Assembly (NCBI GenBank): GCA_002404995.1
Contig: DHKY01000014.1
Location: 7,524-71,523, forward strand
Source: Bacillales bacterium UBA4682
Lineage (GTDB): Bacteria; Bacillota_I; Bacilli_A; RFN20; CAG-288
Reading direction: 5' to 3'
Length of the DNA: 64,000 bases
The position numbers were made by a program, and so were the translations under genes. Position 1 is the first letter of the stretch. Each line of letters starts with the position of its first letter. Of the stretch, positions 1 through 50,393 are shown piece by piece. Below the pieces are notes generated by a model. The model saw only the letters and a program-made list of their open reading frames with translations. It was not told where the DNA came from and did no database searches.

Positions 1-2
1 AT

Positions 3-1223
3 GTCCAATACGGTACGATTCCGACATATGACAAACAGTATCCAACTAGAGCCAAGGATGATGCCTATAGCTATGAATTCAGCGGATGGAATCCGTCAGT
101 CACGGCCGTGATTGGAAACCAAACTTATGTTGCTACTTTCTTCAAGACCAATAACCGGTATTTGGTTAAATTTGTCGATGAAGATGGTTCCCTTCTTCAA
201 AGCTCTTATGTAGACTATGGATCAACTCCATCGTTTAATCAATATTACAGTCCTAAAAAAGAGAGCACGGCCCAATATGACTATGTTTTTAAGGGATGGG
301 ACAAGGAACTATCTCCTGTTACGGAAGATGTAACATTTACAGCCGTATATAGCAAAAAAATCCGGTCGTATACCATAAAGTGGGTTGCGAATGGTTATAC
401 CATCAAAAGCGAACAGGTCGATTATGGCCAAATCCCAAATCAGCCTTCTTTGGCTGAGGTCCCAGATAAGAGTCCGTCCAATGAATACACATATCAATTC
501 AAGGGATGGGATAGAGAAATCGAAGCTGTAACCGGAAATACGACTTATACTGCCGTTTATGAAAGAAAAACAAGACAATATCTGGTTTCCTGGATGGGCG
601 AAAATGGAAACCTTCTTAAAAAAGAACAATGCGATTACCTGTCTTCCGTTGGCTCTTACACGCCTGATTTGACAGATAATCAGATTTTCATGGGATGGAA
701 GACCAATCAATCGAGGAGCGATTATTTGGCTTTCCCCTACACAATCACACAGGATGTTTCCTTTTATGCGACCATCGTGAACAAATTCGAGTTCACCTAC
801 CTACCACTTACCGATTCCTATTCCCTTACGAAGTCAGCTGGTACAAAAGACATGACTACTTTTCCCGCAACTTACGATGATGGGGTTCATGGCTTAAAGA
901 ACGTTACAGAAATCGGAACAAGTGCTTTTGAAGGCACTTCAATTACTTCCATGATCATTCCGGACACAGTTACATACATCCATGGTGAGGCATTCAAGAA
1001 TTGCGACTCTTTAGCAACTCTCTTCATTCCTTCCTCAGTCACCAACATCCAAGAAGGCGCTATTTACGGAGATTTGAATCTTTCTGTTTATTGTGAAGCT
1101 GAAAGAAAGCCAGAAACATGGGATGATTACTGGAATGTTGTTCACTATGTTTCTGGAAAGACTAATCATTTCTCAAATGATACCTTTAATAAAAATATCG
1201 AATGGGGCTATTCAAAAGGATAA
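3..1223 (+). CDS. Cell-surface protein, 5'-partial (reading frame is open from the window start). Has repeated Listeria-Bacteroides/InlB B-repeat (Flg_new-like) modules, motif Y.FKGWD....TYTAVY, and a C-terminal BspA-type leucine-rich repeat.
   Basis: Frame 3 has no stop from nt 3 and already encodes the repeat motif (YSYEFSGWNPSVTAVIGNQTY) upstream of the first ATG at 108. There are at least four tandem ~70-aa repeats. The C-terminus has the TpLRR-like 'IPDTVTYIHGEAFKNCDSLATLFIPSSVTNI'. Confidence 0.7.
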   Translation, partial: VQYGTIPTYDKQYPTRAKDDAYSYEFSGWNPSVTAVIGNQTYVATFFKTNNRYLVKFVDEDGSLLQSSYVDYGSTPSFNQYYSPKKESTAQYDYVFKGWDKELSPVTEDVTFTAVYSKKIRSYTIKWVANGYTIKSEQVDYGQIPNQPSLAEVPDKSPSNEYTYQFKGWDREIEAVTGNTTYTAVYERKTRQYLVSWMGENGNLLKKEQCDYLSSVGSYTPDLTDNQIFMGWKTNQSRSDYLAFPYTITQDVSFYATIVNKFEFTYLPLTDSYSLTKSAGTKDMTTFPATYDDGVHGLKNVTEIGTSAFEGTSITSMIIPDTVTYIHGEAFKNCDSLATLFIPSSVTNIQEGAIYGDLNLSVYCEAERKPETWDDYWNVVHYVSGKTNHFSNDTFNKNIEWGYSKG

Positions 1224-1325
1224 AGACCAAATAGTTTTTTGCACGTTATTCTAATCTAGAAATCAATTGGATAGACTGCTATTGGCAGTAATAATCTTCT
1301 TTTGAGTTTTCTAAGGATCTATTGG

Positions 1326-1410
1326 TTAACCCCGTGCAGGTTCAATTTCTGTCGTCCGCACCAACTCAAATGTAATGGCCTCCGATTCCTAGAAAGGAAA
1401 TCTCGGAGGT
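1326..1410 (+). repeat. Partial 3'-end copy (~85 bp) of the ncRNA-like element annotated at 3597..3928. It includes the tRNA-like 'GGTTCAATTyCTGTCGTCCGCACCA' and a hairpin/T-run terminator.
   Basis: GGATCtATTGG...CCGTGCAGGTTCAATTtCTGTCGTCCGCACCA + GCCTCCG-loop-CGGAGG-TTT aligns with 3831..3928. Sequence upstream of 1326 is unrelated. Confidence 0.6.
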
Positions 1411-1692
1411 CTTTATTATTTCCGAGCAGGTGTGGGTATGGACCCAAAATTCAACGCATATAAGGCTGGAATGGATATCGTTTTAGAAAGGTACCCTTGT
1501 GGTAGGGGAAACGGTCAAAGACGAGGTGCCGTTTATTACTAATGCAAATGCGATTGTGGAAAAGAGTTCATCGTTTCTGGCGATGAATTATCGCGCCACC
1601 CTTATTCTTGCGATTGCACGCCTAAACCAATTGTTGAAGGCGACCGTTCCAATGAGTGGGCTCTTGGGTTTCAGGATGGAACGGCTCTATGC

Positions 1693-1901
1693 ATGATTAA
1701 GCCGACAAGGAGAGTATATTTTTCATCGAAATCAGGCGTTTCTGGCATTGTCTGGGATGAGCGAAGAAAGAAATACTATGTGTCCGTTACCTTGTGTGGG
1801 AAGACCTATTTTCTAGGCTTTTTGCGGATAAAGATGAGTCCATAAAGGCCAGGGTTGCCGGCGAACAAAAATACCTCGATCCTTTATTGTCGAATCAATA
1901 G
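1693..1901 (+). pseudogene. AP2-domain protein remnant (HNH homing-endonuclease- or integrase-associated type), disrupted by a frameshift in a T5/T6 run.
   Basis: Frame 1 gives MIKPTRRVYFSSKSGVSGIVWDERRKKYYVSVTLCGKTYFLGF, then a frame slip, then ADKDESIKARVAGEQKYLDPLL. Together these make a canonical AP2 fold signature (YRGV.W....KW.A.I...GK...LG.F...EEAA.AY). Confidence 0.4.
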
Positions 1902-2126
1902 TTTGAGAAATCTTCTTTATAAAAGGTTCATGTGGTAAACTAATTATGCAGCCAACGAATCTTCAAGCTTCCGGGTTTGTGGAAGCCGACGAGCCAATCT
2001 TCTGTAATGCTATTAAGAGGATTACCCATTAGAGGTTCATAGCGATAGGTCGCTCTATCAGCTTGTCAAATGCATTCTTAAGCTGCAGACAGGAGGAAGA
2101 GTCTTTTTGCGTTCCCAAAACGCATT

Positions 2127-3059
2127 ATGAAGACTTCAGAACAAACTATGGATCTCAACAGAGAGACCGCTATGCGACTTTGGAATAAGCGTTATGGCAA
2201 AGCGACCACCGTGAAGGATTTCACTGGTCGTGAAATGGCCAAGGGCGCTTATAACGACCGCAATAGCGCAAAAGGGTGGAACGTAGATCACATCCTACCG
2301 CAAAGCAAAGGCGGTGCTACGGCCGAGCACAACTTGGCCATCTGCAACATTCAAACTAATGACGAGAAGGCGGATAAGTTCCCGAGCTTTAAAGCAAACG
2401 GAATCGTCTTTGATATCGTCAAAGTCCAGAACCATTACGAATATCGCAAACGCGAAGATTCTCCGAAAGTGGAAGAGGACGACGGGGATGTCAACTTCAT
2501 GGATTCCGCTTCCGGAATTCGCTTCTTTAAAGATTTGAAAGGAATCCAGAACAAGCCACGTTTTGTAGGTTCTATTCTAATCAGACTCAAGAATGTCGAG
2601 TCTACAGCGTTAATCGACATGATTGAAAAGTACTTCGACAAAGAGAACATCTCTTACTCTATGAGCAAAGCTTATTGCTCCGACGTAACCAGAATCATCG
2701 CCAAAAACTACAATATGCCGTTGAAAGATGATATTTCTGAACTACTTGATAAATGTATCGTCCTCAACACCTATTTGGGGCATTACTTCTTACCGATGAA
2801 ATATATCAGTGGTTACGATATTATTTTTAGAACAGATTACTTCGAACAGAAAGAGGAAATGTACATCAAGTCCCAAGGAATTGATTTCAGAGAAATCGAA
2901 AACACTGGATTCGACAATAAGCTGTTCATCAACTATATGGTTTGGAACAACAGCGAAGCCAAGGGGAAGATGCAATTCGACTCTTCTGGTTACGAAGCAT
3001 ACGATTACGTCTATACGGAATTAGCAAAAAACTTAGATAAGGAGGTTAATAGGGAGTAA
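2127..3059 (+). CDS. HNH-nuclease-domain protein. The HNH motif is N-terminal and is followed by a ~220-aa C-terminal domain of unknown function.
   Basis: GWNVDHILPQSKGGATAEHNLAICNIQTNDEKAD is a His-Me finger/HNH signature. The ORF is intact at 310 aa. Confidence 0.7.
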   Translation: MKTSEQTMDLNRETAMRLWNKRYGKATTVKDFTGREMAKGAYNDRNSAKGWNVDHILPQSKGGATAEHNLAICNIQTNDEKADKFPSFKANGIVFDIVKVQNHYEYRKREDSPKVEEDDGDVNFMDSASGIRFFKDLKGIQNKPRFVGSILIRLKNVESTALIDMIEKYFDKENISYSMSKAYCSDVTRIIAKNYNMPLKDDISELLDKCIVLNTYLGHYFLPMKYISGYDIIFRTDYFEQKEEMYIKSQGIDFREIENTGFDNKLFINYMVWNNSEAKGKMQFDSSGYEAYDYVYTELAKNLDKEVNRE

Positions 3060-3196
3060 GCAAGATACTCTGCCTCCTGAAAGCCATATAGAAGCGGTCA
3101 GCGACGACCGCTTTTTTCTATGAAGCAATCGACTATACCGAAACCAAACAAATTGCGAATAGTCGAGTGGTTTACTAATAAAAAGAGGAAAAACAT

Positions 3197-3427
3197 ATGG
3201 CCATTATTGAAACTGAAGAAGAGGTTGTTGAAGAAATTCCAAAAGTAGTCGAAGCCGAACCATTGACCCAAAAAGAAATCGAGACAATTGCAGGAGAACT
3301 TATCGAAGCAAATCCGGAAAAGCAAAAATTGATGGTTGATAACATCTACGCAAAGTCCGCTACCGTTTTTTTAAATGTGGAGTCCCCGGTTGATTTCCTG
3401 TCGCCTTTCCTGCATCTGAGGCCGTAG
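3197..3427 (+). CDS. Small acidic hypothetical protein (76 aa).
   Basis: ORF with an AG-rich RBS (aaaagaggaaaaacatATG). No recognisable domain. Confidence 0.3.
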   Translation: MAIIETEEEVVEEIPKVVEAEPLTQKEIETIAGELIEANPEKQKLMVDNIYAKSATVFLNVESPVDFLSPFLHLRP

Positions 3428-3563
3428 CTTATGATCTCGTTGTCCCAGAGATCCATGTAAAGGGTGAGCCCGCAAAAAAATGCGTCCACATACCTTAAAC
3501 AGAACACAATAGAATCCTTTCCTACCATCGAAAAAAGTTCGATGAAATCTTTGTTTTTTCCTA

Positions 3564-3591
3564 TTGTATTCGCATTTTGTTTTGTTATAAT
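3564..3591 (+). promoter_or_regulatory. Sigma-A-type promoter of ncRNA-like element copy 1: -35-like TTGTAT and an extended -10 TGtTATAAT.
   Basis: TTGTAT-N16-TGTTATAAT. The -10 element and the downstream start region are conserved in the inverted copy at ~6991. Confidence 0.5.
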
Positions 3592-3596
3592 GCTCT

Positions 3597-3928
3597 CAGG
3601 AACGAAGGCGGTTCCAACCGATGAAACACCATCGACTGGGAGGCTCTAAAGCAGAGCTTGCCATGGTTGTCCGCTTTTGTCCGCAGCCCGTCCGCAAAAG
3701 CCAATGTACGCAAGGTGTTGGCATTCTTTTTCGTACTTTGGGCTGGAAACAAATACGCTATTTTCCGTCCTGTTCCTATCATGTACTCTTTTGTCTTCTA
3801 AATTAAGGAAAAGGATATGTAGGACTTAGAATCCATTGGAGCAATCCGTGCAGGTTCAATTCCTGTCGTCCGCACCAGTAAAAATAAAAGCCTCCGGTTC
3901 CTTCTTGGGATAACCGGAGGCTTTTTTT
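3597..3928 (+). ncRNA. Unclassified structured ncRNA-like element, copy 1 (~330 nt). It runs from the promoter to an intrinsic terminator. It has a 5' hairpin GGAACGAAGGCGGUUCC and a tRNA-like 3' end ...GGUUCAAUUCCUGUCGUCCGCACCA, then a GCCUCCGG...CCGGAGGC-U7 terminator.
   Basis: No ORF. About 75-80% identical to the inverted copy at 6603..6985, with perfectly conserved blocks interspersed with substitutions. It has its own promoter and terminator. Confidence 0.5.
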
Positions 3929-3973
3929 CTACTTGCCAATAAAATGAAATAAACCAACATTTCTATTTTTCAA

Positions 3974-4674
3974 GAGAAGGATAAACAATAGTGTTGCTAT
4001 CCTCAGCATGCGGTATAATCCTTCTGCTATATCAGAGGGGTTCCGAGGCCAGCAACAGGCTGATATAGCAACTTTCTCCTGTGGAAGCGGAAGATGCAGA
4101 GAATCCCGGAAAACGCCTCGGACACAGTGCTTTCCGAAAAAGTCTGGGTTGACCACACCTACATAAACGCGCCGATGTCGGTACGGAAAGGAAAGAAAAA
4201 GTGTGGACTGTCGAAACACCTCCTCCAGGTCGCGGCAGGCATCGGCTCTCACGGCCATGTGCTTCTCCGGCTCGGGAGCTGGGGAATGGCCGGAACGGGC
4301 GATTCGAAGGATGCGTTCCTCGGACATATAGCCCCTAGCTCCGTCGTCTGCCACGACAAGGGGCACTTAGGCGGATGCTTCCCGGGGTGCTGGGAGGTGG
4401 CAGTGAACTCAGAGGACGGAGAAGCACATGGGCTCCTCAATCCGGTCAACCGGCTGTAAGCCCAGGTCAAGCGCAAGTTTACCGTGCACCTGCGGATCCA
4501 CCGCAAGAACGTTCCCCTATGGCTTAACGAGAAGGCGTTCCAGAGGGAAAGGATGGGGAGCCTGGGTTTCGACGGATACCTGTCGTTCTTCTATAAAACC
4601 ATCTTCCTATCCAGGAAAACACTCAGAAGACGCGAGGTTTTCGGGAATTAGCAACACTATTGTTTATCCTTCTC
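3974..4674. mobile_element. MITE-like non-autonomous element A (701 bp), bounded by 24-bp terminal inverted repeats GAGAAGGATAAACAATAGTGTTGC. The interior is GC-rich and non-coding.
   Basis: The left end GAGAAGGATAAACAATAGTGTTGC equals the reverse complement of the right end GCAACACTATTGTTTATCCTTCTC. The same terminal inverted repeats are found at 5714..5861 and 13255..13713. Confidence 0.55.
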
Positions 4675-5044
4675 ATAAAAAAAGATTATATCGAATTTTC
4701 CGATGCCATAATATGAAACTAACGTGTTGAATTTAAGGGGTGCTGACACATTTTATTCAGTCTTAATTCGTTACTGTAAAATGGTTTGGGTTTCCCGGTT
4801 CCTTCATTCTTTTCTATATTGTTTCTAACGTGATTTCGTAAAAGTAAGAACAAATAAGTCCTTTTCAGATGCTCGATATTGTAGAAGCCATCAATCCGGT
4901 TTAGAAGAATTCTAGCGGTTCATTTTGCATTGTCCTAGCTCATATTGTTTTCTTCGATTCTTAGTGCTGACCGAAAAGGTTTGAATGTCTGGGTCTGGAT
5001 TCTTTGCTTTGTTTCTTGTTTGGAATAGGAATTTTAATTTATCG

Positions 5045-5519: not shown

Positions 5520-5713
5520 TTTCGCCACCTCAATGATAATATAGCACACAGGCAATAGTTTTTTTTGCGCATATTGGTGTGACTTTGTCAATACAAATGT
5601 AACCGCCTTTCTGAAAAAAACGAGAATTCAAAAAAATTGGCTCGTATTTTGTGTCAGTTCCAACTACGTTACTCAGAGCATTATTTTTATCGCTAAAGGG
5701 GATATTTTGTATT

Positions 5714-5861
5714 GAGAAGGTTAAACAATAGTGTTCCCAGTTCTCGGGCGCAGTATAATTCCTGTATTACGTTGCTGTAGTTCCGAGGCCGGCCTCAGGA
5801 TGATATAGAAGAAAGATTATACCGCATGCTGAGGATAGCAACGCTATTGTTTATCCTTCTC
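5714..5861. mobile_element. MITE-like element B (148 bp), the minimal member of the same terminal-inverted-repeat family. It contains the palindrome GAGGCCGGCCTC.
   Basis: Terminal inverted repeats TTGAGAAGGTTAAACAATAGTGTT / AACGCTATTGTTTATCCTTCTCAA. The first ~65 nt (as reverse complement) are ~90% identical to element A's left end. The core is shared with element C. Confidence 0.55.
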
Positions 5862-5873
5862 AATAACATTGTC

Positions 5874-6509
5874 TTAAAAAACATATTCACCCCCCTTTTC
5901 AAATAATAATAATATCTCGCCCAAGCTATCATGAACTGAGCTAATGGTCGAAGTGCTGATACCTATTTCTCCTTTTCCTATTACAAAATCACAGCACATT
6001 AGTTGTAAATTAGAAGCGTTTGTCGCTTGTAGTCTATCCCACTCTACGCTAAAAGATAAATTTAATGGATTAACCTTATCAGCGAATTCATTTATATTAT
6101 GTAAGTTCAAGTCAATTGAAAACTCATCGCTATGCATTTCAACAGTCATCCTTTGACGGGGAAACACCAAATCGTATCGTTTATTATTTGCATCCTCCAA
6201 ATTGATTCCCTCGGATTTAAAACAATAAGTAACATTAAACTTATCACTATCAGCTGGAGTCCAATATCGTTGATAATTATTTGTTTTAAACACACTATAA
6301 AAAATAGAATATTCATCGAATGATTCGAAAATATATGTGCCAACAACTTTGCTGTTTGGACCGCCTTCAATAATTTTAACATCTGAAACATCATCACTGC
6401 TCAATGCACCATCACTCATTCCGCTGGAAGTATATGTGGTATGTGAAGTACAACTTGATAAGGAAAAAATCACCAGTAGAGTTGCAATTAACACTCTATC
6501 CTTTTTCAT
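5874..6509 (-). CDS. Lipoprotein (211 aa).
   Basis: MKKDRVLIATLLVIFSLSSC lipoprotein signal peptide and lipobox. Confidence 0.6.
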   Translation of the reverse strand: MKKDRVLIATLLVIFSLSSCTSHTTYTSSGMSDGALSSDDVSDVKIIEGGPNSKVVGTYIFESFDEYSIFYSVFKTNNYQRYWTPADSDKFNVTYCFKSEGINLEDANNKRYDLVFPRQRMTVEMHSDEFSIDLNLHNINEFADKVNPLNLSFSVEWDRLQATNASNLQLMCCDFVIGKGEIGISTSTISSVHDSLGEILLLFEKGGEYVF

Positions 6510-6602: not shown

Positions 6603-6985
6603 AAAAACAAAAATAGACCACCCAACCCTACTATTGCTAATAGGATTAAGCGGTCTTTTATTATGCTTTAGCCAATGCTTTCTTAAGTGTGTTTATACTC
6701 GCCTCGATCTGGGCATTGATCTAGGTGTCGACGTCAACAAAGTTCTTGTTGATGTAGTCCTAGAGAAGGGGTTCATCCCTAAGGTTCCTTAAGGAGCTTA
6801 GAAGAGATAAAAGACGAATTTGAGCGCATTTGTTGCCAGTCAAGACAACGAAAAAGAATGCCAACCACTCGCTTTGATTGGCGTTGCGGACAGGCTGCGA
6901 ACAATAGCGGACGGCTATGGCAGGACCTGATTTTGAGACCCTTGAGCCGATGGAGTTTCACCAGTCGGAACCGCCTTCGTTCCTA
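6603..6985 (-). ncRNA. Unclassified structured ncRNA-like element, copy 2, in inverted orientation. It has the conserved -10 GCTATAATGC, the 5' hairpin GGAACGAAGGCGGUUCC, and ends in an intrinsic terminator (~6603-6660) about 95 nt upstream of the lipoprotein gene 6509..5874.
   Basis: The reverse complement aligns with 3470..3870 over ~350 nt, with identical blocks such as CCTTAAACAGAACACAATAGAA, GGAACGAAGGCGGTTCC and TTGGCATTCTTTTTCGT. It lacks the CCA-type 3' end of copy 1. Confidence 0.45.
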
Positions 6986-7347
6986 GTTGCATTATAGCAA
7001 ACGGAAATGCGTTTTCAAATAGAAATTTCATCGAATTTATCGAAACTTTTTGGATGCTAGAATAGGGTTCTATTGTGTTCTGTTTAAGGGCTATGGACGC
7101 ATTGGTTTTGCTTAAATTCATTCAATATCGATAGGTTATTTACTCTTCTTGAAAATCACTTTAACCGCCGTGGTACAATAAATATAGAATCACGTTTTCT
7201 AATATCAAATAATTAAGTGCTATGGTTCCAAGTTACTATTTAAGTAACTAATCTGGTGAAATTGCCAGATGCATTGCCGTTTGGAACTGTTGAAAAAATG
7301 GGGAAATACTTTGGTAGTGTTGAGACTTCATAAAAGGAGACATTAAA

Positions 7348-9162
7348 ATGGATGTAAACGCAGAAAAAATGAATTTCGATGTCAATAGTGTAAGTGTTGG
7401 CACTCTTCTTGGGTATGTTGAGGACAATACAATTGCAATTCCTGAAATTCAAAGACCTTATGTGTGGGAGGCTAAGCAAGTTCGTGATTTGATTGACTCT
7501 CTTTATAAAGGATATCCAATCGGATACATTATCACTTGGAAGAATCCTAACGTGAAGCTTAAGGATGGCTCAACGTCTGAGGGGAAACAAATTCTTATTG
7601 ATGGCCAACAAAGAGTCACTGCCCTTTCAGCGGCTCTTCTTGGAAAAGAAGTCCTTGATGCAGAGTACAAAAAGAAACGAATCAAAATCTCTTTTAACAT
7701 TAAGACCGAAACATTTGATGTTTGCAATCCTGCCAAGGAAAAAAGTCCGGAATGGATTTCGGACATTTCCCGTTTCCTCAAGCCTGGATTAGTGAATATG
7801 TATGAATTTTGTGGAGAATACGCGAAAATTTCTGGACTTGATGCCAATACAGTGAACAACAGAATATCCCGCCTTCTGAGTATTAAGGAATCGAGAGTAG
7901 GAAGAATTGAGTTATCTTCGGAAGCTGACATTGATACTGTAACTGAGATATTTGTGAGAATAAATTCACGTGGAAAGTCACTTTCTCAAGCGGATTTTGT
8001 CATGTCCAAAATCAGCGTTAATGAGAAATTCTCTGGAAATGACATAAGAAAGGCTATCGATTATTTTTCTCACTTTTTGCAAACGCCAACAGATTTTCCA
8101 CATATAAAAGATTGTGACACCGATTTTGCTTCTAAGGACATTTTCAGAAAGATGTCTTGGGCGGCTTCTTATTCAGATAATCTTTATAAGCCAGACTATT
8201 CTGACATGCTTAGAGTTGCTTTCACTTACAAATTCAAAAAAGGGAGACTTCAAGACTTGGTGAGTCTCCTTTCTGGTCGTGACTTTGAAACTAAAGAATA
8301 TAAAGAAGAGATTGCTCAGTCTAGTTTTGAAAGTCTTTATGATGGCGTCAAGGATTTTGTTAACGAAACCAATTACAATCGATACATCATGATTGTTAAA
8401 GGAACTGGAATTATAAACGAGTCCATTAAGCGGTCTCAGGGTGTTATTAATTTTGGATATATCCTTTATTTGCTCATGAAAGAGAAAAAATACCAGCCCT
8501 TTGATATTGAGAAATACGTAATGAAGTGGATTGTTTACTCTATTCTCACACAGCGATATTCTGGCTCTACTGAGACGGGTTTCGAGTACGATGTTAAGCG
8601 TTTAGATGCTTGTGGAAACATTCCCGAATATATTGATTCTCAAGCAGAAGCAGAACTTTCTGACGCTTTTTGGGAAAAGGTTCTTCCAGATCGTTTCAAT
8701 ACTTCAGTAGCTGGTAGTAGCTATTGGTATATTTTTCTTGCTGCACAAATAAAAGAAAATGATCATGCCTTTTTATCAAAAAGTAGTACTGTCAAAGACT
8801 TACTTGAGCAGAGAGGAGATGTTCATCATATTTTCCCGAAAAAATATTTGATTAAAAATGGTATAGATATTAAGCAGCGATATAATCAAATAGCAAATTA
8901 CGTTTATCTACAACAAGAAACAAATATTGCTATTAGCGACAGAGCACCCAACCAGTACTTTAAAGAATTAGAGGAACAGATAAATGGTGGCAAACAACGC
9001 TATGGATGCATACTTTCTCAAGACGAGCTGGAGGCCAATCTTGCCGAAAATGCTATCCCCTCAGGAATTCAGTCAATGGAATACGACTCATATGATAAAT
9101 TCCTTGAGGAACGCCGGAAACTTATGGCTGAAAAGATTAAGAAATATTTTCAAAGCTTTTAG
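7348..9162 (+). CDS. GmrSD-like type IV (modification-dependent) restriction endonuclease: N-terminal DUF262 (ParB-like NTPase/nuclease) and C-terminal DUF1524 (HNH/His-Me finger).
   Basis: N-terminal IAIPEIQRPYVWE...LIDGQQRVTAL (DUF262 motifs). C-terminal DVHHIFPKKYL...NYVYLQQETNIAIS (DUF1524). Confidence 0.8.
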   Translation: MDVNAEKMNFDVNSVSVGTLLGYVEDNTIAIPEIQRPYVWEAKQVRDLIDSLYKGYPIGYIITWKNPNVKLKDGSTSEGKQILIDGQQRVTALSAALLGKEVLDAEYKKKRIKISFNIKTETFDVCNPAKEKSPEWISDISRFLKPGLVNMYEFCGEYAKISGLDANTVNNRISRLLSIKESRVGRIELSSEADIDTVTEIFVRINSRGKSLSQADFVMSKISVNEKFSGNDIRKAIDYFSHFLQTPTDFPHIKDCDTDFASKDIFRKMSWAASYSDNLYKPDYSDMLRVAFTYKFKKGRLQDLVSLLSGRDFETKEYKEEIAQSSFESLYDGVKDFVNETNYNRYIMIVKGTGIINESIKRSQGVINFGYILYLLMKEKKYQPFDIEKYVMKWIVYSILTQRYSGSTETGFEYDVKRLDACGNIPEYIDSQAEAELSDAFWEKVLPDRFNTSVAGSSYWYIFLAAQIKENDHAFLSKSSTVKDLLEQRGDVHHIFPKKYLIKNGIDIKQRYNQIANYVYLQQETNIAISDRAPNQYFKELEEQINGGKQRYGCILSQDELEANLAENAIPSGIQSMEYDSYDKFLEERRKLMAEKIKKYFQSF

Positions 9163-14453: not shown

Positions 14454-15704
14454 ATGATTGAAAGAAACGAATATCTGAGAAAGCTCATTGACCGAATGGG
14501 AAATGGAAGGATCAAGGTAATCACTGGCATCAGAAGATGCGGTAAATCCTATTTGTTATTTGAAATATTTTATAACTATCTGCTTGAAAACGGGGTTGAT
14601 AAGTCACATATCATCGCTTTACAACTAGATGACAGGCTGAATATCAAATTCCAAAATCCAGAATATTTGTGTCAATATGTTCATAATCAGATTACTGACG
14701 ACGGGAAGTACTATATACTTTTAGATGAAGTGCAATTCGTGGATCATTTTGAAAGGGTTTTGAATTCTTTCCTGCACATCAAAAACGCAGATGTTTATGT
14801 GACTGGAAGCAATGCGAAATTTCTTTCTTCGGACATTATTACTGAATTCAGAGGAAGAGGAGACCAAATTTATTTATCGCCGCTGTCTTTCAAAGAATAT
14901 TATGATTATTGCAAAATAGATTTTGATGATGCGTGGAATGAATATTCCATGTATGGAGGCATGCCTTTTCTTTTGACTTGCAAAACAGACGAACAAAAAG
15001 TTCATTATTTAGAAAACCTTTTCACTGAGACCTACATAAAAGATATTGTCAATCGTCACAATATCCGAGACACCGACGTTTTAGAAGATGTCCTGAATAT
15101 TGTTTCTTCAAGTGTCGGTTCATTGACAAACCCTAATAAGTTATCGAATTCATTCAAATCTATCAAGAGCATCGATGTGGCACCTAACACAATCAAGCAA
15201 TATCTTGATTATTGCATTGACTCCTTTTTGTTGCAAAAAGCATACCGGTACGATGTCAAAGGAAAGAAATACATTGACACGCCTTTAAAATACTATTTCA
15301 CCGATATAGGCTTAAGAAACGCAAGACTAGGATTCAGACAGCAGGAAGAAAACCACATCATGGAAAACATCCTATTTAACGAATTGGTAATCCGTGGATA
15401 TAAAGTAGACGTTGGTGTTGTAACCACCAGTGAAAAGAACCCAAATGGTAACTATGTAAGAAAAAACCGAGAAGTTGATTTTGTCTGTAATCTCGGATAT
15501 GAGAGATACTACATACAATCCGCGTTTGCTCTCGATGATGCAGAAAAGAAAGAGCAAGAAGAAAAATCCTTGCTGAATATCCATGACGGTTTTAAAAAAA
15601 TCATCATTGTAAGAAATAACATCAAGAAATGGATAGATGACAAAGGAACACTCTTTCTAGGCTTAAAGGAATTCCTTATCAATCCAGATTCCATAAAATC
15701 CTAA
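14454..15704 (+). CDS. AAA+ ATPase of the COG1373 / AAA_14-DUF4143 family (P-loop ATPase fused to a C-terminal PD-(D/E)xK-like domain).
   Basis: VITGIRRCGKSYLL Walker A at the N-terminus. C-terminal NREVDFVCNLGYERYYIQSAFAL (E.D..-type nuclease-fold motif). Paralog of 34833..36068. Confidence 0.8.
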   Translation: MIERNEYLRKLIDRMGNGRIKVITGIRRCGKSYLLFEIFYNYLLENGVDKSHIIALQLDDRLNIKFQNPEYLCQYVHNQITDDGKYYILLDEVQFVDHFERVLNSFLHIKNADVYVTGSNAKFLSSDIITEFRGRGDQIYLSPLSFKEYYDYCKIDFDDAWNEYSMYGGMPFLLTCKTDEQKVHYLENLFTETYIKDIVNRHNIRDTDVLEDVLNIVSSSVGSLTNPNKLSNSFKSIKSIDVAPNTIKQYLDYCIDSFLLQKAYRYDVKGKKYIDTPLKYYFTDIGLRNARLGFRQQEENHIMENILFNELVIRGYKVDVGVVTTSEKNPNGNYVRKNREVDFVCNLGYERYYIQSAFALDDAEKKEQEEKSLLNIHDGFKKIIIVRNNIKKWIDDKGTLFLGLKEFLINPDSIKS

Positions 15705-20676: not shown

Positions 20677-20974
20677 GTCTTAAAATATCATTGTTCAATA
20701 ACATTGTTGCATAGCCAAGAATTCAAATAATCTACCACTTAATTCAATAAGATAACTATATTTCGAGCAATAATTGCTTTATCAAAACAGTCTTTTCAAA
20801 GATAAATGCGAGACGAAATATTTTTTGTGCAGATTTCATCACAATATTTTAAGTTTCAAAATTCCGATTATTTTGATTTTATAAATCGTCTTTTATAATT
20901 TTATGATTTGTTACTGCTTAACATTGAGTTTTTTTCTCAATTTTAATACAATATTTAAAATGGAGGCAGGATTT

Positions 20975-22240
20975 ATGCTTTTACAGTTCAATTTCGAAAA
21001 CTATGGTCCTTTCAAAGAAGAAGCATCGCTAAACCTTGAAGCAGCACCCTATGCTGAATTCAAAGAACAGATTCGAACAATCGGGAACAAGAAAATTCTT
21101 CCTTTAGCCGCTATCTATGGTGCAAATGCCAGTGGAAAGTCTTTTACCTACAACGCTTTCAATTACAGGAAGTTCAGGGTGCTTTTTTCCAGGAGCCTTG
21201 ATTTAGAAAAAAGCAAAACGACCCTTAATCCTTTTCCGGAAGCAGTGCCTTTCCGATTAGACAAAGAAAGTGAAAACAGTCCTTCCTCCTTTGAAGTGAT
21301 CTTAACCTCCGAAATAGACGGGAAAGAAATCACTCTTCAATATGGATTTTCTGTATTTCAGCGCCAGATTGTTAAAGAATGGCTTTATCAACTTCCTCAG
21401 CGGAGTACTTCTGCCGTAAAAGAATACCTCTTGCGAGACAGAGAAACTATTAGTATAAAGATTCCCGAATTAGATGATTCCATCAAAACAACTTTAGAGA
21501 AATCTACTCCTTCTTCAGCACTTGTCTTATCTTTTGGTTCCAGACTAAATGTGGAACCATTTAAAACTATTTTTAACTTTTTTAATATTTCCTTAGTTAC
21601 CGACTTTGGTAACCTTTCTGAAATGTTTTTCCGTGAGCACCTGCTTCCTATAGGTATAGCTGAAAACAAAGAAAGCCTATCGGATTGTGTTTCGTTTCTT
21701 CAGAGCTTCGAACCTTCTATCAAGAATATTCGATTAGAGGAAATCAAGCAGGACAATAATCAAAAGCAATATTTTATTAAAACCATACATAGAACGATAA
21801 ACGGAGAAGAAGTGGAATTTCGAAGGGAAAACGAATCCTCAGGAACAAAGAAAAGGTTCCAATTCTATAGTTTTCTTCGCCAGGCAATCAGTACGGGAAG
21901 TGTCCTTTTCGTTGATGAACTCAATTCACGTCTTCATCCTCTGCTTTTGCGGAATATTCTTCTGCTTTTTCTTTCCCAGGAAAAGAATCCAAACCATTCA
22001 CAGCTAATTTTCACTTGCCATGAGCCTTGGCTGTTAAGCGCAAAAATTCTACGCCGCGATGAAATTTACTTTACAAACAAAAATCTCAAAACCCAAGCTT
22101 CTGAGCTCTATTCCTTGGCTGAGTTCAAAGATGAAAAGGGAATGAAAATACGTTCCGATGAGGACTTTGAAAAGAATTACCTTCTCGGAAAATATGATGG
22201 AATCCCCGTTCTTTCAAATATGGGAATAAAAGGAGAATAG
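20975..22240 (+). CDS. AAA_21/OLD-type ATPase (AbiLi-like) of a two-gene abortive-infection-type module.
   Basis: FNFENYGPFKEEASLNL...IYGANASGKS N-terminal Walker A typical of AAA_21/AbiEii-like ATPases, and FVDELNSRLHP Walker B. Start chosen after the GGAGG RBS. The ORF track's upstream extension begins at 20903. Confidence 0.65.
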   Translation: MLLQFNFENYGPFKEEASLNLEAAPYAEFKEQIRTIGNKKILPLAAIYGANASGKSFTYNAFNYRKFRVLFSRSLDLEKSKTTLNPFPEAVPFRLDKESENSPSSFEVILTSEIDGKEITLQYGFSVFQRQIVKEWLYQLPQRSTSAVKEYLLRDRETISIKIPELDDSIKTTLEKSTPSSALVLSFGSRLNVEPFKTIFNFFNISLVTDFGNLSEMFFREHLLPIGIAENKESLSDCVSFLQSFEPSIKNIRLEEIKQDNNQKQYFIKTIHRTINGEEVEFRRENESSGTKKRFQFYSFLRQAISTGSVLFVDELNSRLHPLLLRNILLLFLSQEKNPNHSQLIFTCHEPWLLSAKILRRDEIYFTNKNLKTQASELYSLAEFKDEKGMKIRSDEDFEKNYLLGKYDGIPVLSNMGIKGE

Positions 22241-22244
22241 GCAA

Positions 22245-22895
22245 ATGGGACTTGGCAGACCAGGGAAAAAGCCCCGAAAGCAAGGGTCACGACGAGAACT
22301 TTTTGAAAATATCCTGATTGTTACGGATGGTGAGAAAACAGAAGCTAATTATTTTCAGGGACTACGTAATTCATTTCCTGAGCCTATCAGAAATAAGATA
22401 AGCATAAAAATCCTAGCTAAGCTTGATACACAAGAACTTGTTGAACGATCACTGAAAGAACAGAGAGAAGACCCTAGGGAACGGGAAATCTGGATAGTTT
22501 TCGATAAAGACAATCGGCCTGATGATTTTGACAGAATAATATCAAGTGCCAAAAAGCATGGTATTAATATTGCTTGGTCCAATCCCTGTATTGAGATTTT
22601 CTTTCACGCTTATTATGGGAAAAGGCCGAAAAACACAGATGCAAAGCAATGTATTTCTGCTTTTTCTATCGATTTTCAAAAAGCAACCAAGAAAGAATAC
22701 TTGAAAAACGACAAAGAAATTTATGATATCCTGTGTCATTCAGGAGATGAGAAGAAAGCTATTGAATTTTCCAAAAAGAAATTAAAGCAATCAATAAATG
22801 AAGCCGAAAGTAAAAAGCCTTCTTCTTATTGTCCGGGTTCTACTCTTCATGAATTAGTTGGTAAAATCACAAGCCATCGCCCGGAGAACAAATAA
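22245..22895 (+). CDS. RloB-like protein (TOPRIM-like, AbiLii-like partner).
   Basis: ILIVTDGEKTEANYFQGL matches the RloB N-terminal hallmark (ILIVcEGEKTEpnYF). It starts 4 bp after the ATPase stop. Confidence 0.65.
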   Translation: MGLGRPGKKPRKQGSRRELFENILIVTDGEKTEANYFQGLRNSFPEPIRNKISIKILAKLDTQELVERSLKEQREDPREREIWIVFDKDNRPDDFDRIISSAKKHGINIAWSNPCIEIFFHAYYGKRPKNTDAKQCISAFSIDFQKATKKEYLKNDKEIYDILCHSGDEKKAIEFSKKKLKQSINEAESKKPSSYCPGSTLHELVGKITSHRPENK

Positions 22896-34832: not shown

Positions 34833-36068
34833 ATGGATAATATTATTTTACGGAAGCAATATCTCGATAAAATCCGGCCGTTTTATGATTCAAAATATAT
34901 TAAGGCTATTACCGGAATAAGACGTTGCGGAAAGTCCGAGCTCATTAAACAGATAATTAAAGAAATCAAAGATCGCGGAGTTGATGACCAACACATTATT
35001 TTCCTGGATTTGGAAGGAAGAAGCGGTGAAGGAATCACAACACGACTTAAACTAGAGAAGAAGCTTGATTCTATGATTACGGATGACAACAAATACTACA
35101 TTTTCATAGATGAAGTGCAGCACATCAAAAAATTCGAAGAAGCAATAGCATCTGTACGGATAAGTTATAATTGTTCCCTATTTGTTACAGGCAGCAATTC
35201 CAGATTGTTACATGGCAAATTGCAAGATAGATTGACAGGCCGTGCAAAAGAATTCGAGCTGTATCCTTTTTCTTATAAAGAAACTTTGGAATACAAAGCC
35301 GCAAGTGAAATAGAAATAAGTGATGATGATTTTCAAGACTATTTAGAGAACGGGGGAAGGCCTCAGCGATATGAGGAGCAAGACAAATCAGCAATAAAAG
35401 ATTACCTACGTTCCCTTTGTCATTTCATCATCGAAAAAGATGTCTTTGGCTCCCATAATAAAATAAATCGTTTGGAATTTGAAAATATAGCGAAATACAT
35501 TATTTCAACTACAGGCAAGCCTTTTTCGGCTTTATCAATTGCAAAACATTTAAGAAACACAAAGACAAAAGAAGAGCAAAAGAATCTTTCTCAAACAGTC
35601 AATAATTACGTTCAATATCTTCAGGATTGCTATTTCATCACAGCATGCAATCCATATTATCTAAAGGATAAAGAAAGACTAAACGGAGTGAAAAAATACT
35701 ATCCCGTTGATACTGGATTAAGAAGTGCATTCAATGAAACGATAGAATTTGACGACACCTTTGCCCTAGAAGCTGTTATCTTTAACGAATTGATTATGCG
35801 GGGATACGAAGTCAGTTACGGAAAGCTACGGGATGGAGAAATTGATTTCGTTGTAAAAAAAGACACAAGAAAATGTCTGATCCAGGTAGCCTATTCCATT
35901 TCAAACCAAACCACTTTTGACCGAGAATACAAAGCATTTGACAAGGTCAAGGATCATTCCCCGAAATATGTTCTTTCTCTTGATAAGAAAGACACCTCTA
36001 ATAATGGAATCACCCATCTGAATATAATTGATTTCTTGCTTGGAAAGAAAGATATCTGCCTTAGCTGA
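34833..36068 (+). CDS. AAA+ ATPase of the COG1373 / AAA_14-DUF4143 family (second paralog).
   Basis: AITGIRRCGKSELI Walker A. C-terminal DGEIDFVVKKDTRKCLIQVAYSI nuclease-fold motif. Confidence 0.8.
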   Translation: MDNIILRKQYLDKIRPFYDSKYIKAITGIRRCGKSELIKQIIKEIKDRGVDDQHIIFLDLEGRSGEGITTRLKLEKKLDSMITDDNKYYIFIDEVQHIKKFEEAIASVRISYNCSLFVTGSNSRLLHGKLQDRLTGRAKEFELYPFSYKETLEYKAASEIEISDDDFQDYLENGGRPQRYEEQDKSAIKDYLRSLCHFIIEKDVFGSHNKINRLEFENIAKYIISTTGKPFSALSIAKHLRNTKTKEEQKNLSQTVNNYVQYLQDCYFITACNPYYLKDKERLNGVKKYYPVDTGLRSAFNETIEFDDTFALEAVIFNELIMRGYEVSYGKLRDGEIDFVVKKDTRKCLIQVAYSISNQTTFDREYKAFDKVKDHSPKYVLSLDKKDTSNNGITHLNIIDFLLGKKDICLS

Positions 36069-48978: not shown

Positions 48979-49139
48979 CCATTGACTCTTTTCTTTCTAC
49001 GACTATAATTCTCAATCGGAAATGATGTCTTCCAGATATAGGGTCTGCCTATATCAAACCGCTTTGGATTATAAAGCTGATGACGTCTATGCTGGTTTTC
49101 AGCATAGAGGAAATCAGCTTTTTTCATAGGAGGTAGAAG

Positions 49140-50393
49140 ATGTCTATTTTCTTCACTTTGTTTCTGATTATTTTCGGAGGTGTGGTTCTTAACAAGCTGG
49201 CAAAGAGGGTTCATGTTCCTCCTCTTGTTCTGTATCTGCTTTATGGCATTCTTCTTTCTGTATTAGAAGAAAAGTTCGATTCTTCCTTTACTTTCCTCGA
49301 TTCCGGAGTCAGGAATATTTCTTCAGCTATTCGGAAGGTCGCCTTAATTATCATTCTTCTTAAAGCAGGGCTCTCTCTTAATCTATCCGATTTAAAGAAA
49401 GTTGGTAGACCAGCTATTCTAAGGTCTTTTCTTCCAGCCTGTACGGAAAGGGTAGCCGTAGGTATCTTTGGCAAGAGGATTCTGGGTTTAAGCTACACTG
49501 AGAGTTTTCTTCTTGGTTCCGTGCTTGGCGCCGTTTCTCCGGCAGTTGTCATTCCGAGGATGTCAAAACTGAGGGATGAGAAATACGGTACCGAAAAAGG
49601 AATTCCACAGCTTGTCATTGCCGGAAGCAGTATCGATGACATTATCAGGATTGTCTTTTATCAATGCTTCTTGACTAGGGAAAAAGGAGGAAGCCTTTCA
49701 GTGAGGACTTTCCTGAATATCCCCATTTCCATTGTCACAGGTGTCGGTTTGGGAATCCTTTTGGGTAGGCTCTTATCTTTTGTCTTTGATAAAGCAAAAA
49801 GGAACGATACCCTAAAACTGCTACTTCTTCTTTCCATCTGTTTCGGGCTTACTTATTTAGAAGACCTTGTCTCTCCTTATTTTGGATATTCTTCCCTTCT
49901 TTCCATCATTACCTGTGCCATTGTCCTCCATAAGAAAATAGAACCGGTATCCTTAGATCTTAAGAATAAGTTCAATGAAATCTGGTACTTAGCTGAAATC
50001 TTCCTTTTTGTCTTAGTCGGAGCGGGAATCAAGATTGAATATGCCGGCAAATTCTTCCTGCCTGCCCTTCTCCTGCTTTTGATTTCCCTTGCCTTCCGCA
50101 GCTTAGCTGTTACTGGTTGTTTAGTAAAAACCAAGCTGAACTGGAAGGAAAGAGGCTTTGTTGTCATAAGCTATCTTCCGAAAGCGACAGTCCAGGCCGC
50201 TATTGGAGGAGGATTATTGGATCTTGGGAACCAGCTTCTGGCCTCGGGAGCTGCAAATGCAGAAAGTGTCATAGCCGCAGGCACGATTGTTTTATCCGTT
50301 TCAGTCCTTGCTATTCTTCTCACTGCGCCAGCTGCAGCAATTTCAAGGAACCTTCTTTATCCCCATAGGCTGAGAAGAGAAGAGTGCAAATAG
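49140..50393 (+). CDS. Cation:proton antiporter-like membrane transporter (CPA/NhaP-like).
   Basis: About 12 transmembrane segments, 417 aa. N-terminal pattern typical of Na+/H+ exchanger family proteins. Confidence 0.55.
   Translation: MSIFFTLFLIIFGGVVLNKLAKRVHVPPLVLYLLYGILLSVLEEKFDSSFTFLDSGVRNISSAIRKVALIIILLKAGLSLNLSDLKKVGRPAILRSFLPACTERVAVGIFGKRILGLSYTESFLLGSVLGAVSPAVVIPRMSKLRDEKYGTEKGIPQLVIAGSSIDDIIRIVFYQCFLTREKGGSLSVRTFLNIPISIVTGVGLGILLGRLLSFVFDKAKRNDTLKLLLLLSICFGLTYLEDLVSPYFGYSSLLSIITCAIVLHKKIEPVSLDLKNKFNEIWYLAEIFLFVLVGAGIKIEYAGKFFLPALLLLLISLAFRSLAVTGCLVKTKLNWKERGFVVISYLPKATVQAAIGGGLLDLGNQLLASGAANAESVIAAGTIVLSVSVLAILLTAPAAAISRNLLYPHRLRREECK

What the first reader, a model, noticed from the sequence alone, without database searches (positions are those of the whole stretch)
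1326..3928. HNH-nuclease segment bracketed by direct repeats of the ncRNA 3' end plus terminator (island-like insertion scar)
A ~100-bp block is present at 1326..1410 and 3831..3928 in the same orientation. It comprises the tRNA-like ...CCGTGCAGGTTCAATTyCTGTCGTCCGCACCA end plus a GCCTCCG...CGGAGG-Tn terminator. The 2.4 kb in between carries a frameshifted AP2-domain gene (1693..1901), an HNH-domain gene (2127..3059) and a small acidic ORF. AP2 domains are common in HNH homing endonucleases. Duplicated 3' ends of small RNA genes are the classic signature of site-specific integration. However, the fragment lies upstream of the intact copy rather than downstream, which argues against a simple attL/attR model. 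Duplication followed by deletion is an alternative explanation.
Basis: partly seen in the sequence, partly recalled or inferred. Interest (0 to 1): 0.6.

Follow-up and report, generated by a model that had tools for sequence, protein, structure and literature searches.

The report
tRNA-Leu half-repeats bracketing an HNH cassette
The two repeats are leftover 3' halves of a leucine tRNA gene, the usual scars of DNA elements that insert into tRNA genes, and they bound one gene cassette (a structured RNA plus an HNH nuclease) in a row of defence-gene cassettes that differs between strains and carries no visible integrase.

Summary
The repeat is real. Copies at 1311-1363 and 3825-3877 are each followed by a CCTCCG...CGGAGG-Tn hairpin that occurs nowhere else in the 64 kb.

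It is not the end of "the ncRNA". It is the 3' half of tRNA-Leu(UAG), running from the anticodon loop to CCA. The same 28-mer ends intact tRNA-Leu genes in other genomes. Neither window copy has a 5' half.

Related contigs carry arrays of 2-7 kb cassettes. Each is bounded by such halves and by a conserved arm of about 355 nt that holds a promoter and a candidate structured sRNA. The arm at the right end of the HNH segment is joined, exactly after GGACTTAG, to three different tRNA halves and neighbours in different strains. One strain equals the window plus a precise 2.6-kb cassette insertion. One related locus shows intact tRNA-Leu, 7 kb, then arm plus half.

The island reading is therefore essentially right. 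This is tandem accretion at a tRNA gene, which is a known kind.

Open points: I found no integrase, no empty site for the HNH segment itself, and no conserved arm left of copy 1. The cargo is a horizontally moved 1.27-kb module, Rfam Staphylococcus-1 RNA plus a 310-aa HNH protein, of unknown function.

The parts
1311..1363 (+). tRNA-Leu 3' half, copy 1. It runs from the anticodon-loop position (CTAAGGA, a T-to-A change from CTTAGGA) through the variable arm, T arm and acceptor 3' strand CGTCCGC-A-CCA. There is no 5' half and no conserved arm on its left.
   Evidence: no tRNA by ARAGORN or Rfam
1379..1421 (+). Terminator-like hairpin CCTCCG..CGGAGG plus a T-rich tail that follows copy 1.
1438..1901 (+). 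Pseudogene with an in-frame stop at 1540-1542 and a frameshift near 1815-1822. It is related to the non-catalytic parts of phage 'HNH endonuclease' families. Degraded copies of the same gene follow the tRNA-Leu gene or half plus terminator in L030, L026, L029 and L022.
1886..3156 (+). Discrete 1.27-kb module: promoter region, Staphylococcus-1 RNA, HNH ORF and terminator. It is shared at 88-89% nucleotide identity with otherwise unrelated contigs.
1952..2082 (+). Staphylococcus-1 RNA (Rfam RF03112), 109.9 bits.
   Evidence: also present upstream of homologous HNH genes
2127..3059 (+). 310-aa protein. It has an N-terminal HNH nuclease motif (about residues 47-88) and a C-terminal domain (residues 120-310) that is confidently modelled as a ferredoxin-like fold.
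3092..3118 (+). Terminator hairpin (AAGCGGTC..GACCGCTT plus a T run) at the end of the HNH module.
   Evidence: read; lies inside the conserved module
3197..3427 (+). 76-aa acidic ORF with no family match. It is conserved only in the same-species contigs and is not part of the 1.27-kb module.
3478..3824 (+). Conserved cassette arm ('P arm'), which ends in ..TGTAGGA next to the core.
   Evidence: alignments A2, A3, A9; 20 further loci
3598..3733 (+). Candidate structured sRNA inside the arm. It has a -10 box TATAAT at 3586-3591 and its own terminator at 3700-3722 plus a T run.
   Evidence: no Rfam match
3825..3877 (+). tRNA-Leu 3' half, copy 2 (CTTAGAA loop through CCA). The crossover core CTTAG is at 3825-3829.
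3891..3928 (+). Terminator hairpin that follows copy 2.
   Evidence: (I11)
6790..7111 (-). Second copy of the arm plus sRNA, inverted and without a tRNA half. It departs from the other units right after ..TAGGACT.

Best explanation
The two repeats are 3' halves of a tRNA-Leu(UAG) gene, that is, att-type junctions left by elements that recombine site-specifically in the anticodon loop of tRNA-Leu.

The window opens inside a strain-variable, defence-rich island built by accretion of small cassettes at that site. Each cassette has three parts:
- a tRNA-Leu 3' half plus terminator, often followed by a decayed phage-HNH-endonuclease-like gene;
- cargo;
- a conserved arm of about 355 nt, with a promoter and a structured sRNA, ending in GGA next to the core CTTAG.

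The 2.5-kb segment 1311-3824 is one such cassette. Copy 1 is its own tRNA half. Copy 2 belongs to whatever lies to its right.

Shown: the identity of the repeats, the array architecture, and a precise polymorphic junction at CTTAG.

Inferred: recombination is carried out by a tyrosine-type integrase supplied in trans, because the cassettes encode none. It is also inferred that the HNH cassette itself arrived this way.

The cargo is a horizontally transferred two-part module, Staphylococcus-1 RNA plus an HNH protein. My best guess, at about 0.3 confidence, is that the RNA is a 5'-leader that controls or binds the nuclease, as in RNA-antitoxin or Abi-type defence modules.
For: 1. The 28-mer is the 3' end of ARAGORN-called tRNA-Leu(tag) genes in L011 and L012. 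Alignment A9 shows that homology of both window copies to intact tRNA-Leu genes begins exactly at CTTAG in the anticodon loop.
2. There is no tRNA or tmRNA in the window, and the acceptor 5' strand GCGGACG is absent upstream of either copy.
3. More than 20 units in independent assemblies have the arm followed, 241-256 nt after the sRNA start, by a tRNA-Leu half. Among them are at least 9 different acceptor strands, and the junction is GGACTTAG in nearly all of them.
4. The identical arm of the HNH cassette is joined to three different halves and neighbours. In the window it is variant CGTCCGC. In L013, L014, L015 and L032 it is TACGCCC plus an AAA_14/DUF4143 cassette. In L026 it is ACCCGGC plus an RNase III-like cassette.
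5. L013 equals the window plus a 2.6-kb cassette. The distal unit of that cassette carries the window's own half and terminator. The two arms are only 73% alike and share just GTAGGACTTAG next to the junction. Homologous recombination would therefore have to cross over within 11-12 nt.
6. L030 shows the canonical layout: intact tRNA-Leu(tag), terminator, 7.2 kb, then arm plus tRNA half.
7. Cargo in the related loci is defence-type: GmrSD, AAA_21, Wadjet, SLFN helicase, Eco57I, Fic and KAP.
8. The Staphylococcus-1 RNA precedes the HNH gene in every lineage examined, down to 61% amino-acid identity. The module is 88-89% identical in unrelated contexts.
Against: - No integrase or other recombinase lies in or near the cassettes. 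None was found among about 55 window ORFs. Among 62 ORF-cluster representatives from related loci, the only hit is a 226-aa tyrosine recombinase 9 kb from a unit.
- There is no empty site for the HNH segment. Its left junction is the same in all six contigs, lacks the conserved arm, and its loop reads CTAAG rather than CTTAG.
- No intact tRNA-Leu lies in the window or in the 7.9 kb upstream that L013 supplies.
- The data are metagenome assemblies. Excision has not been observed.
- The function of the RNA/HNH module is untested. There were no PADLOC, PDB or phage-database matches.
Confidence: 0.65

Rival explanations
1. The tRNA halves and arms are ancient scars. Present-day cassette differences arise only by ordinary homologous recombination and horizontal transfer between the repeated arms, with no active site-specific system.
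For: No integrase was found. The arms are 70-95% identical and could serve as substrates for homologous recombination. The tRNA halves and the adjacent gene are decayed: a mutated loop in copy 1, and pseudogenes in every copy examined.
Against: The window/L013 difference needs a crossover inside the 11-12 nt shared next to the junction, because the arms differ immediately to the left and the halves differ immediately to the right. The same sharp junction is seen with at least 9 tRNA-half variants.
Confidence: 0.2
2. Local duplication of a block of about 100 bp followed by deletion or insertion. Integration plays no part.
For: Only two copies lie in the window. The two hairpins are similar in design.
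Against: The block is a tRNA-Leu 3' half that starts at the anticodon loop. The copies are only about 77-83% identical while the surrounding DNA is 99% conserved between strains. Many variant halves sit at equivalent junctions elsewhere.
Confidence: 0.05
3. The arm sRNA and the tRNA-like end form one functional chimeric RNA, a tmRNA-like or tRNA-like-tailed ncRNA. Copy 1 would then be a fragment of a second such gene.
For: The spacing between sRNA and tRNA half is constant at 241-256 nt. Both are on the same strand and a promoter lies upstream.
Against: - The sRNA has its own conserved terminator about 90 nt before the half.
- There is no acceptor 5' strand.
- No tmRNA or tRNA call was made, and G3-U70 is absent.
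- The halves vary freely, with no compensating change in the arm.
- Paralog B and several other units lack the half.
Confidence: 0.05
4. The HNH gene is a free-standing homing endonuclease that inserted itself here together with its AP2-like neighbour.
For: The module has sharp boundaries and occurs in two unrelated contexts. The neighbouring pseudogene matches phage 'HNH endonuclease' families.
Against: There are no phage-database matches. The flanks in the two contexts share no homology, which homing would require. The protein is a conserved 310-aa two-domain family with a dedicated upstream RNA.
Confidence: 0.05

Closest known systems
Tandem accretion of integrative elements at tRNA or tmRNA genes. 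Examples are tycheposon islands in Prochlorococcus (bioRxiv 10.1101/2020.12.28.424599) and ssrA-linked islands in Dehalococcoides (PMC3146451, abstract).
   Same: Partial tRNA copies in direct orientation separate successive elements. Newer elements push older ones into the island, degenerate remnants persist, and the cargo is adaptive or defensive. The island is strain-variable.
   Different: In these loci none of the units carries an integrase. All units share a conserved arm with a promoter and a structured sRNA. Units are very small (2-7 kb). The intact tRNA was seen only in one related locus (L030).
Cis-mobilizable elements (CIMEs) and accretion at att sites in streptococcal ICE/IME systems. 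This rests on my own knowledge; the review PMC5704250 was listed but not read.
   Same: Integrase-less segments bounded by att sites, which can be moved by an integrase supplied by a related element.
   Different: No helper element has been identified here. The target is the anticodon loop of tRNA-Leu. The hosts are uncultured gut Bacilli/Mollicutes-like bacteria.
Integron gene-cassette arrays.
   Same: A row of short, promoter-poor, recombinase-less cassettes separated by recombination sites and differing between strains.
   Different: No intI or attC was found. The sites are tRNA halves plus a 355-nt arm. This is an analogy only.
RNA-partnered toxin or nuclease modules: abiF-motif RNA RCd22 with AbiF (PMC12373285), and HEARO/omega RNA with IscB (PMC9755519, listed).
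   Same: A conserved structured RNA is encoded directly upstream of, and on the same strand as, a nuclease or toxin gene that sits in mobile or defence contexts.
   Different: The protein has no RuvC domain, and only its roughly 40-aa HNH motif resembles Cas9d/IscB (27 and 15 bits against cut-offs of 375 and 175). It is not an Abi_2 protein. No interaction or guide function has been shown.

Membership tests
tRNA-targeting integrative element / genomic island | Flanking direct repeats are copies of the 3' part of a tRNA gene | tested here: met
   The 28-mer is the 3' end of tRNA-Leu(tag) genes. Homology starts at the anticodon loop.
tRNA-targeting integrative element / genomic island | An intact tRNA gene at one end of the element or array | tested here: not met
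   No tRNA lies in the window or in the 7.9 kb upstream supplied by L013. The feature is met only in related locus L030.
tRNA-targeting integrative element / genomic island | The element encodes its own integrase | tested here: not met
   Pfam scans of the cassette ORFs, the window ORFs and 62 ORF-cluster representatives from related loci.
tRNA-targeting integrative element / genomic island | Occupied versus empty site with breakpoints at the repeat | tested here: inconclusive
   Met for the neighbouring cassette: the window is empty and L013 is occupied. Not found for the HNH segment itself.
tRNA-targeting integrative element / genomic island | Excision to a circular form | not testable with these tools
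   Needs reads or PCR.
Intact tRNA or tmRNA gene (the 'ncRNA with a tRNA-like end') | A complete cloverleaf or tmRNA fold with an acceptor 5' strand | tested here: not met
   ARAGORN found 0 genes. Rfam gave no tRNA or tmRNA at E<=5. GCGGACG is absent upstream.
Rfam RF03112 Staphylococcus-1 RNA | Covariance-model score above the gathering threshold over the full model | tested here: met
   109.9 bits against 87.7, model positions 1-127.
HNH nuclease (Pfam HNH_4, PF13395) | Score above the curated cut-off | tested here: met
   24.3 bits against 22, residues 49-86.
AP2 domain (Pfam PF00847) | A Pfam AP2 match in the broken gene | tested here: not met
   The repaired 154-aa product has no AP2 hit at E<=1. 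Only PHROG 'HNH endonuclease' families match.
IscB / Cas9-type RNA-guided nuclease | A RuvC domain plus a whole-protein score above the NCBIfam cut-off | tested here: not met
   Only the HNH motif matches: 27.4 bits against 375 (Cas9d) and 15 bits against 175 (IscB).
Known anti-phage defence systems (PADLOC-DB 2.0) | A match to any PADLOC model | tested here: not met
   0 families for the HNH protein.

The most novel reading that the evidence does not exclude
An integron-like platform anchored at tRNA-Leu in uncultured gut Bacilli. Integrase-less defence cassettes would be inserted and excised at tRNA-half sites by a recombinase supplied in trans. The structured sRNA encoded in every cassette arm would take part in, or regulate, that recombination. 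One cassette would carry a new RNA-partnered HNH nuclease system, with the Staphylococcus-1 RNA acting as antitoxin, sensor or guide.
Probability: 0.15. Interest if true: 0.75.

Novelty: new member of a known kind. Interest (0 to 1): 0.42.

Why it matters
- It replaces a puzzling repeat ('the fragment lies upstream of the intact gene') with the standard signature of tRNA-targeted integration.
- It shows that a defence island in an uncultured gut lineage is built from very small cassettes that lack a recombinase and have a shared architecture.
- It yields two testable leads. The first is a conserved arm-encoded sRNA of unknown role. The second is a consistent pairing of the orphan Rfam family Staphylococcus-1 with a two-domain HNH protein family, which may give that RNA a functional context.

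Tried and rejected
- tmRNA or a tRNA-like-tailed ncRNA. ARAGORN and Rfam were negative, there is no acceptor 5' strand, the end is G3-C70 rather than G3-U70, and the sRNA has its own terminator.
- Phage origin. There was no tblastn or blastn match for the HNH protein or the RNA in 50,697 phage records. Two IMG/VR pattern hits were unrelated chance matches, and the tRNA-half pattern gave none.
- Integrase hunt. Pfam was run on 62 ORF-cluster representatives and on the window ORFs. The single Phage_integrase hit, L037:2648-3328, is 9 kb from a unit. I infer it is unrelated.
- The left flank of copy 1 as a decayed arm. The alignment score was no better than shuffles, 75 of 500.
- A second tRNA-Ser copy bounding an island in L004. 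The 17-nt match lies inside an ORF and is probably chance.
- Literature on the Staphylococcus-1 RNA. Nothing was retrievable, and the main text of the 2017 discovery paper does not mention it.
Full report
**Observation**

The window has a 53-nt direct repeat at 1311-1363 and 3825-3877, 83% identical. BLAST extends it to about 80 nt at 77.5% identity. The 28-nt core GCAGGTTCAATTYCTGTCGTCCGCACCA occurs exactly twice in 64 kb, against none expected. Each copy is followed by a CCTCCG...CGGAGG hairpin and a T run. That hairpin also occurs only twice in the window, so the repeat is not a common dispersed terminator. ARAGORN finds no tRNA or tmRNA in the whole window. Rfam finds none either, even at E<=5 in 1200-4800.

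**What the repeat is**

By eye, both copies read as the 3' half of a type-II tRNA: anticodon loop, long variable arm, T arm, acceptor 3' strand and CCA. A scan of one genome per species with the 28-mer found it as the 3' end of ARAGORN-called tRNA-Leu(tag) genes in two MAGs (L011 and L012). It also found a third, 5'-less copy in an uncultured Mollicutes MAG related to the window (L010).

Alignment of intact tRNA-Leu genes with the window copies shows that homology begins at CTTAG, the anticodon loop. Everything to the left is unrelated. The predicted acceptor 5' strand GCGGACG is absent upstream of either copy. Both copies are therefore tRNA-Leu(UAG) 3' halves, and neither is an intact gene.

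**The 'ncRNA' is a separate thing**

The stretch 3478-3824 has a paralog on the minus strand at 7111-6790. The shared part holds a -10 box (TATAAT, 3586-3591) and an RNA of about 135 nt that starts at AGGAACGAAGGCGGTTCC (3598). That RNA ends in its own terminator, 3700-3722 plus a T run, about 90 nt before the tRNA half. The paralog has no tRNA half at all.

Across 18 distinct copies, a five-helix fold is 96.7% paired. Seven pairs show double changes, and only 3 of 500 shuffles reach that number. The fold far exceeds slid-partner controls. There is no Rfam match. I treat it as a candidate structured sRNA that belongs to the cassette arm, not to the tRNA.

**Related loci show an array**

The window's exact HNH protein lies on three other contigs (L013-L015). 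Window 1-3898 equals L013 7875-11770 at 99.4% identity. A metagenome scan with the start of the sRNA gave 20 more loci.

In the more than 20 units that carry a tRNA-Leu half, the half lies 241-256 nt after the sRNA start, and in nearly all of them the junction reads ...GGACTTAG|.... The halves carry at least nine different acceptor strands: CGTCCGC, TACGCCC, TACGCTC, CTAGTGC, ACCCGGC, ATCCGGC, CCAGGGC, ATGTGGC and CAGGCGC. Several contigs carry two or three units 2-2.6 kb apart. L014, for example, has a lone half at 772 and units at 3031, 5664 and 7213.

L030 gives the canonical picture. It has an intact tRNA-Leu(tag) at 5844-5927 with a terminator, then 7.2 kb of cargo, then the arm (12830) plus a tRNA half (13073).

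Cargo in these loci is dominated by defence-type genes: GmrSD, AAA_21, Wadjet JetABCD, an SLFN-type helicase, Eco57I, KAP NTPase, Fic and an RNase III-like protein. The window itself adds GmrSD (7348-9162) and AAA_14/DUF4143 (14454-15704) before core genes begin near 16.9 kb.

**Evidence for a fixed crossover**

The arm at the right end of the HNH segment is identical in the window, L013/14/15/32 and L026, up to and including GGACTTAG. After that it continues into three different tRNA halves, terminators and neighbours.

L013 equals the window plus a 2.6-kb cassette made of a variant-2 half, a terminator, AAA_14/DUF4143 and a second arm. That second arm is followed by the window's own half and terminator.

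The two arms are only 73% identical and share just GTAGGACTTAG next to the junction. A RecA-type deletion would therefore have to cross over within 11-12 nt. A site-specific exchange in the anticodon loop explains the pattern directly. This is the classic target position of tRNA-directed tyrosine integrases; that statement rests on established knowledge and was not tested here.

**The HNH segment as a cassette**

Read this way, 1311-3824 is one cassette with these parts:
- its own tRNA half and terminator (1311-1421);
- a decayed gene (1438-1901);
- the cargo (1886-3156);
- a small acidic ORF (3197-3427);
- the arm (3478-3824).

The decayed gene has an in-frame stop and a frameshift. It has no Pfam AP2 match but clear matches to phage families annotated 'HNH endonuclease'. 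Degraded copies of the same gene follow the tRNA gene or half plus terminator in L030, L026, L029 and L022. It is therefore part of the conserved cassette end rather than cargo.

**Weak points**

I found no integrase:
- none in any cassette;
- none among about 55 window ORFs scanned;
- among 62 ORF-cluster representatives from related loci, only a 226-aa tyrosine recombinase 9 kb from a unit.

The left junction of the HNH segment is the same in all six contigs that have it. It lacks the conserved arm, a resemblance of its flank to an arm is not significant, and its loop reads CTAAG. So there is no empty site for this particular segment.

L036 shares the upstream Eco57I-T5orf172 genes (98%) and the downstream arm plus variant-2 half with L013, but has different cargo between them. 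This shows replacement, though not a clean excision. No intact tRNA-Leu lies within the window or the 7.9 kb upstream that L013 supplies. All comparisons rest on metagenome assemblies.

**The cargo**

Rfam places a Staphylococcus-1 RNA (RF03112, 109.9 bits) at 1952-2082, 44 nt before the HNH ORF. The block 1886-3156 recurs at 88-89% nucleotide identity in contigs that share nothing else with the window. All five of the 87-90%-identical relatives that I could trace to a contig sit in that other context. The module has therefore moved horizontally as a unit.

The RNA is present at 105-127 bits upstream of homologs down to 61% amino-acid identity, again in island-like settings. One sits next to tRNA-Ser and a serine-recombinase element, another next to GmrSD.

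An invariant AGGAGG lies about 30 nt before the start codon. A hairpin lies between them, and its sequence differs between lineages.

The protein family is large: 1388 hits in the first search, and 72 clusters at 50% identity with E<=1e-30. The N-terminal HNH part of about 100 aa also occurs fused to other C-termini. The C-terminal domain is modelled with pLDDT 80-96 as a ferredoxin-like fold, with only weak structural neighbours. The HNH part was modelled poorly.

Only the HNH motif resembles Cas9d or IscB. There are no PADLOC, PDB or phage-database matches. Function is unknown. An RNA that regulates or binds the nuclease, by analogy with the abiF-motif RNA RCd22 and AbiF (PMC12373285), is my preferred guess, held with low confidence.

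**Comparison and verdict**

Partial tRNAs that separate successive elements, with newer insertions pushing older ones into an island, are described for Prochlorococcus tycheposons. Islands integrated at ssrA are described for Dehalococcoides. Integrase-less att-bounded segments are known as CIMEs (my own knowledge). The finding is therefore a new member of a known kind.

The unusual features are that every unit seen lacks a recombinase, that the arm is conserved and bears an sRNA, and that the orphan Staphylococcus-1 RNA is paired with an HNH protein. These are leads, not results.

Noticed in passing
window 3966-4682, and pieces at 5702-5865: A GC-rich (up to 62%) element bounded by 34-nt terminal inverted repeats. 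A full 1.03-kb copy with a 286-aa ORF lies inverted in L013 (15012-16042). In L014 and L015 the right end of the element abuts window position ~611, inside the LRR gene. ORF fragments carry an IS1595-type zinc-ribbon motif, recognised by eye. It is probably an active IS or MITE that remodels this island.
   Followed up: partly
window 3598-3733 (+) and 6984-6850 (-): A candidate new structured sRNA of about 135 nt, with a promoter, five helices, covariation and its own terminator. It is found in more than 20 cassette arms in related metagenome contigs and has no Rfam family. It carries 2-3 copies of (C)CGTCCGC at a period of about 10-11 nt, and the copy number varies between units.
   Followed up: partly
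window 6790-7111 (-): An inverted arm copy without a tRNA half. It diverges from the other arms right after ..TAGGACT, the same place as the crossover. It may be a product of inversion or aberrant recombination.
   Followed up: no
window 2083-2135: Between the Staphylococcus-1 RNA and the HNH start codon lies an invariant AGGAGG about 30 nt upstream of ATG. A hairpin lies between them, and its outer stem pairs with the first codons. The hairpin is kept in other lineages with a different sequence.
   Followed up: partly
window 7348-9162, 14454-15704, 20903-22895 and 34833-36068: Further defence-type genes: GmrSD, two AAA_14/DUF4143 ATPases, and an AAA_21 + RloB pair.
   Followed up: partly
window 49009-49096: A fluoride riboswitch (RF01734, 43.1 bits) upstream of an ORF of the Na/H-exchanger family (49140-50393).
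   Followed up: no
L035 8626 (-): A unit in which the sRNA is cut short at GCCATGCCCGTCACACCA and followed by a terminator. It looks as if a CGTCC word inside the sRNA had been joined to a tRNA 3' end.
   Followed up: no
L004 9429-13718 and L006: A 66%-identical HNH homolog with its Staphylococcus-1 RNA lies 300 nt downstream of an intact tRNA-Ser(tga). Just beyond it, on the opposite strand, are an HTH_17 gene and a large serine recombinase gene.
   Followed up: partly
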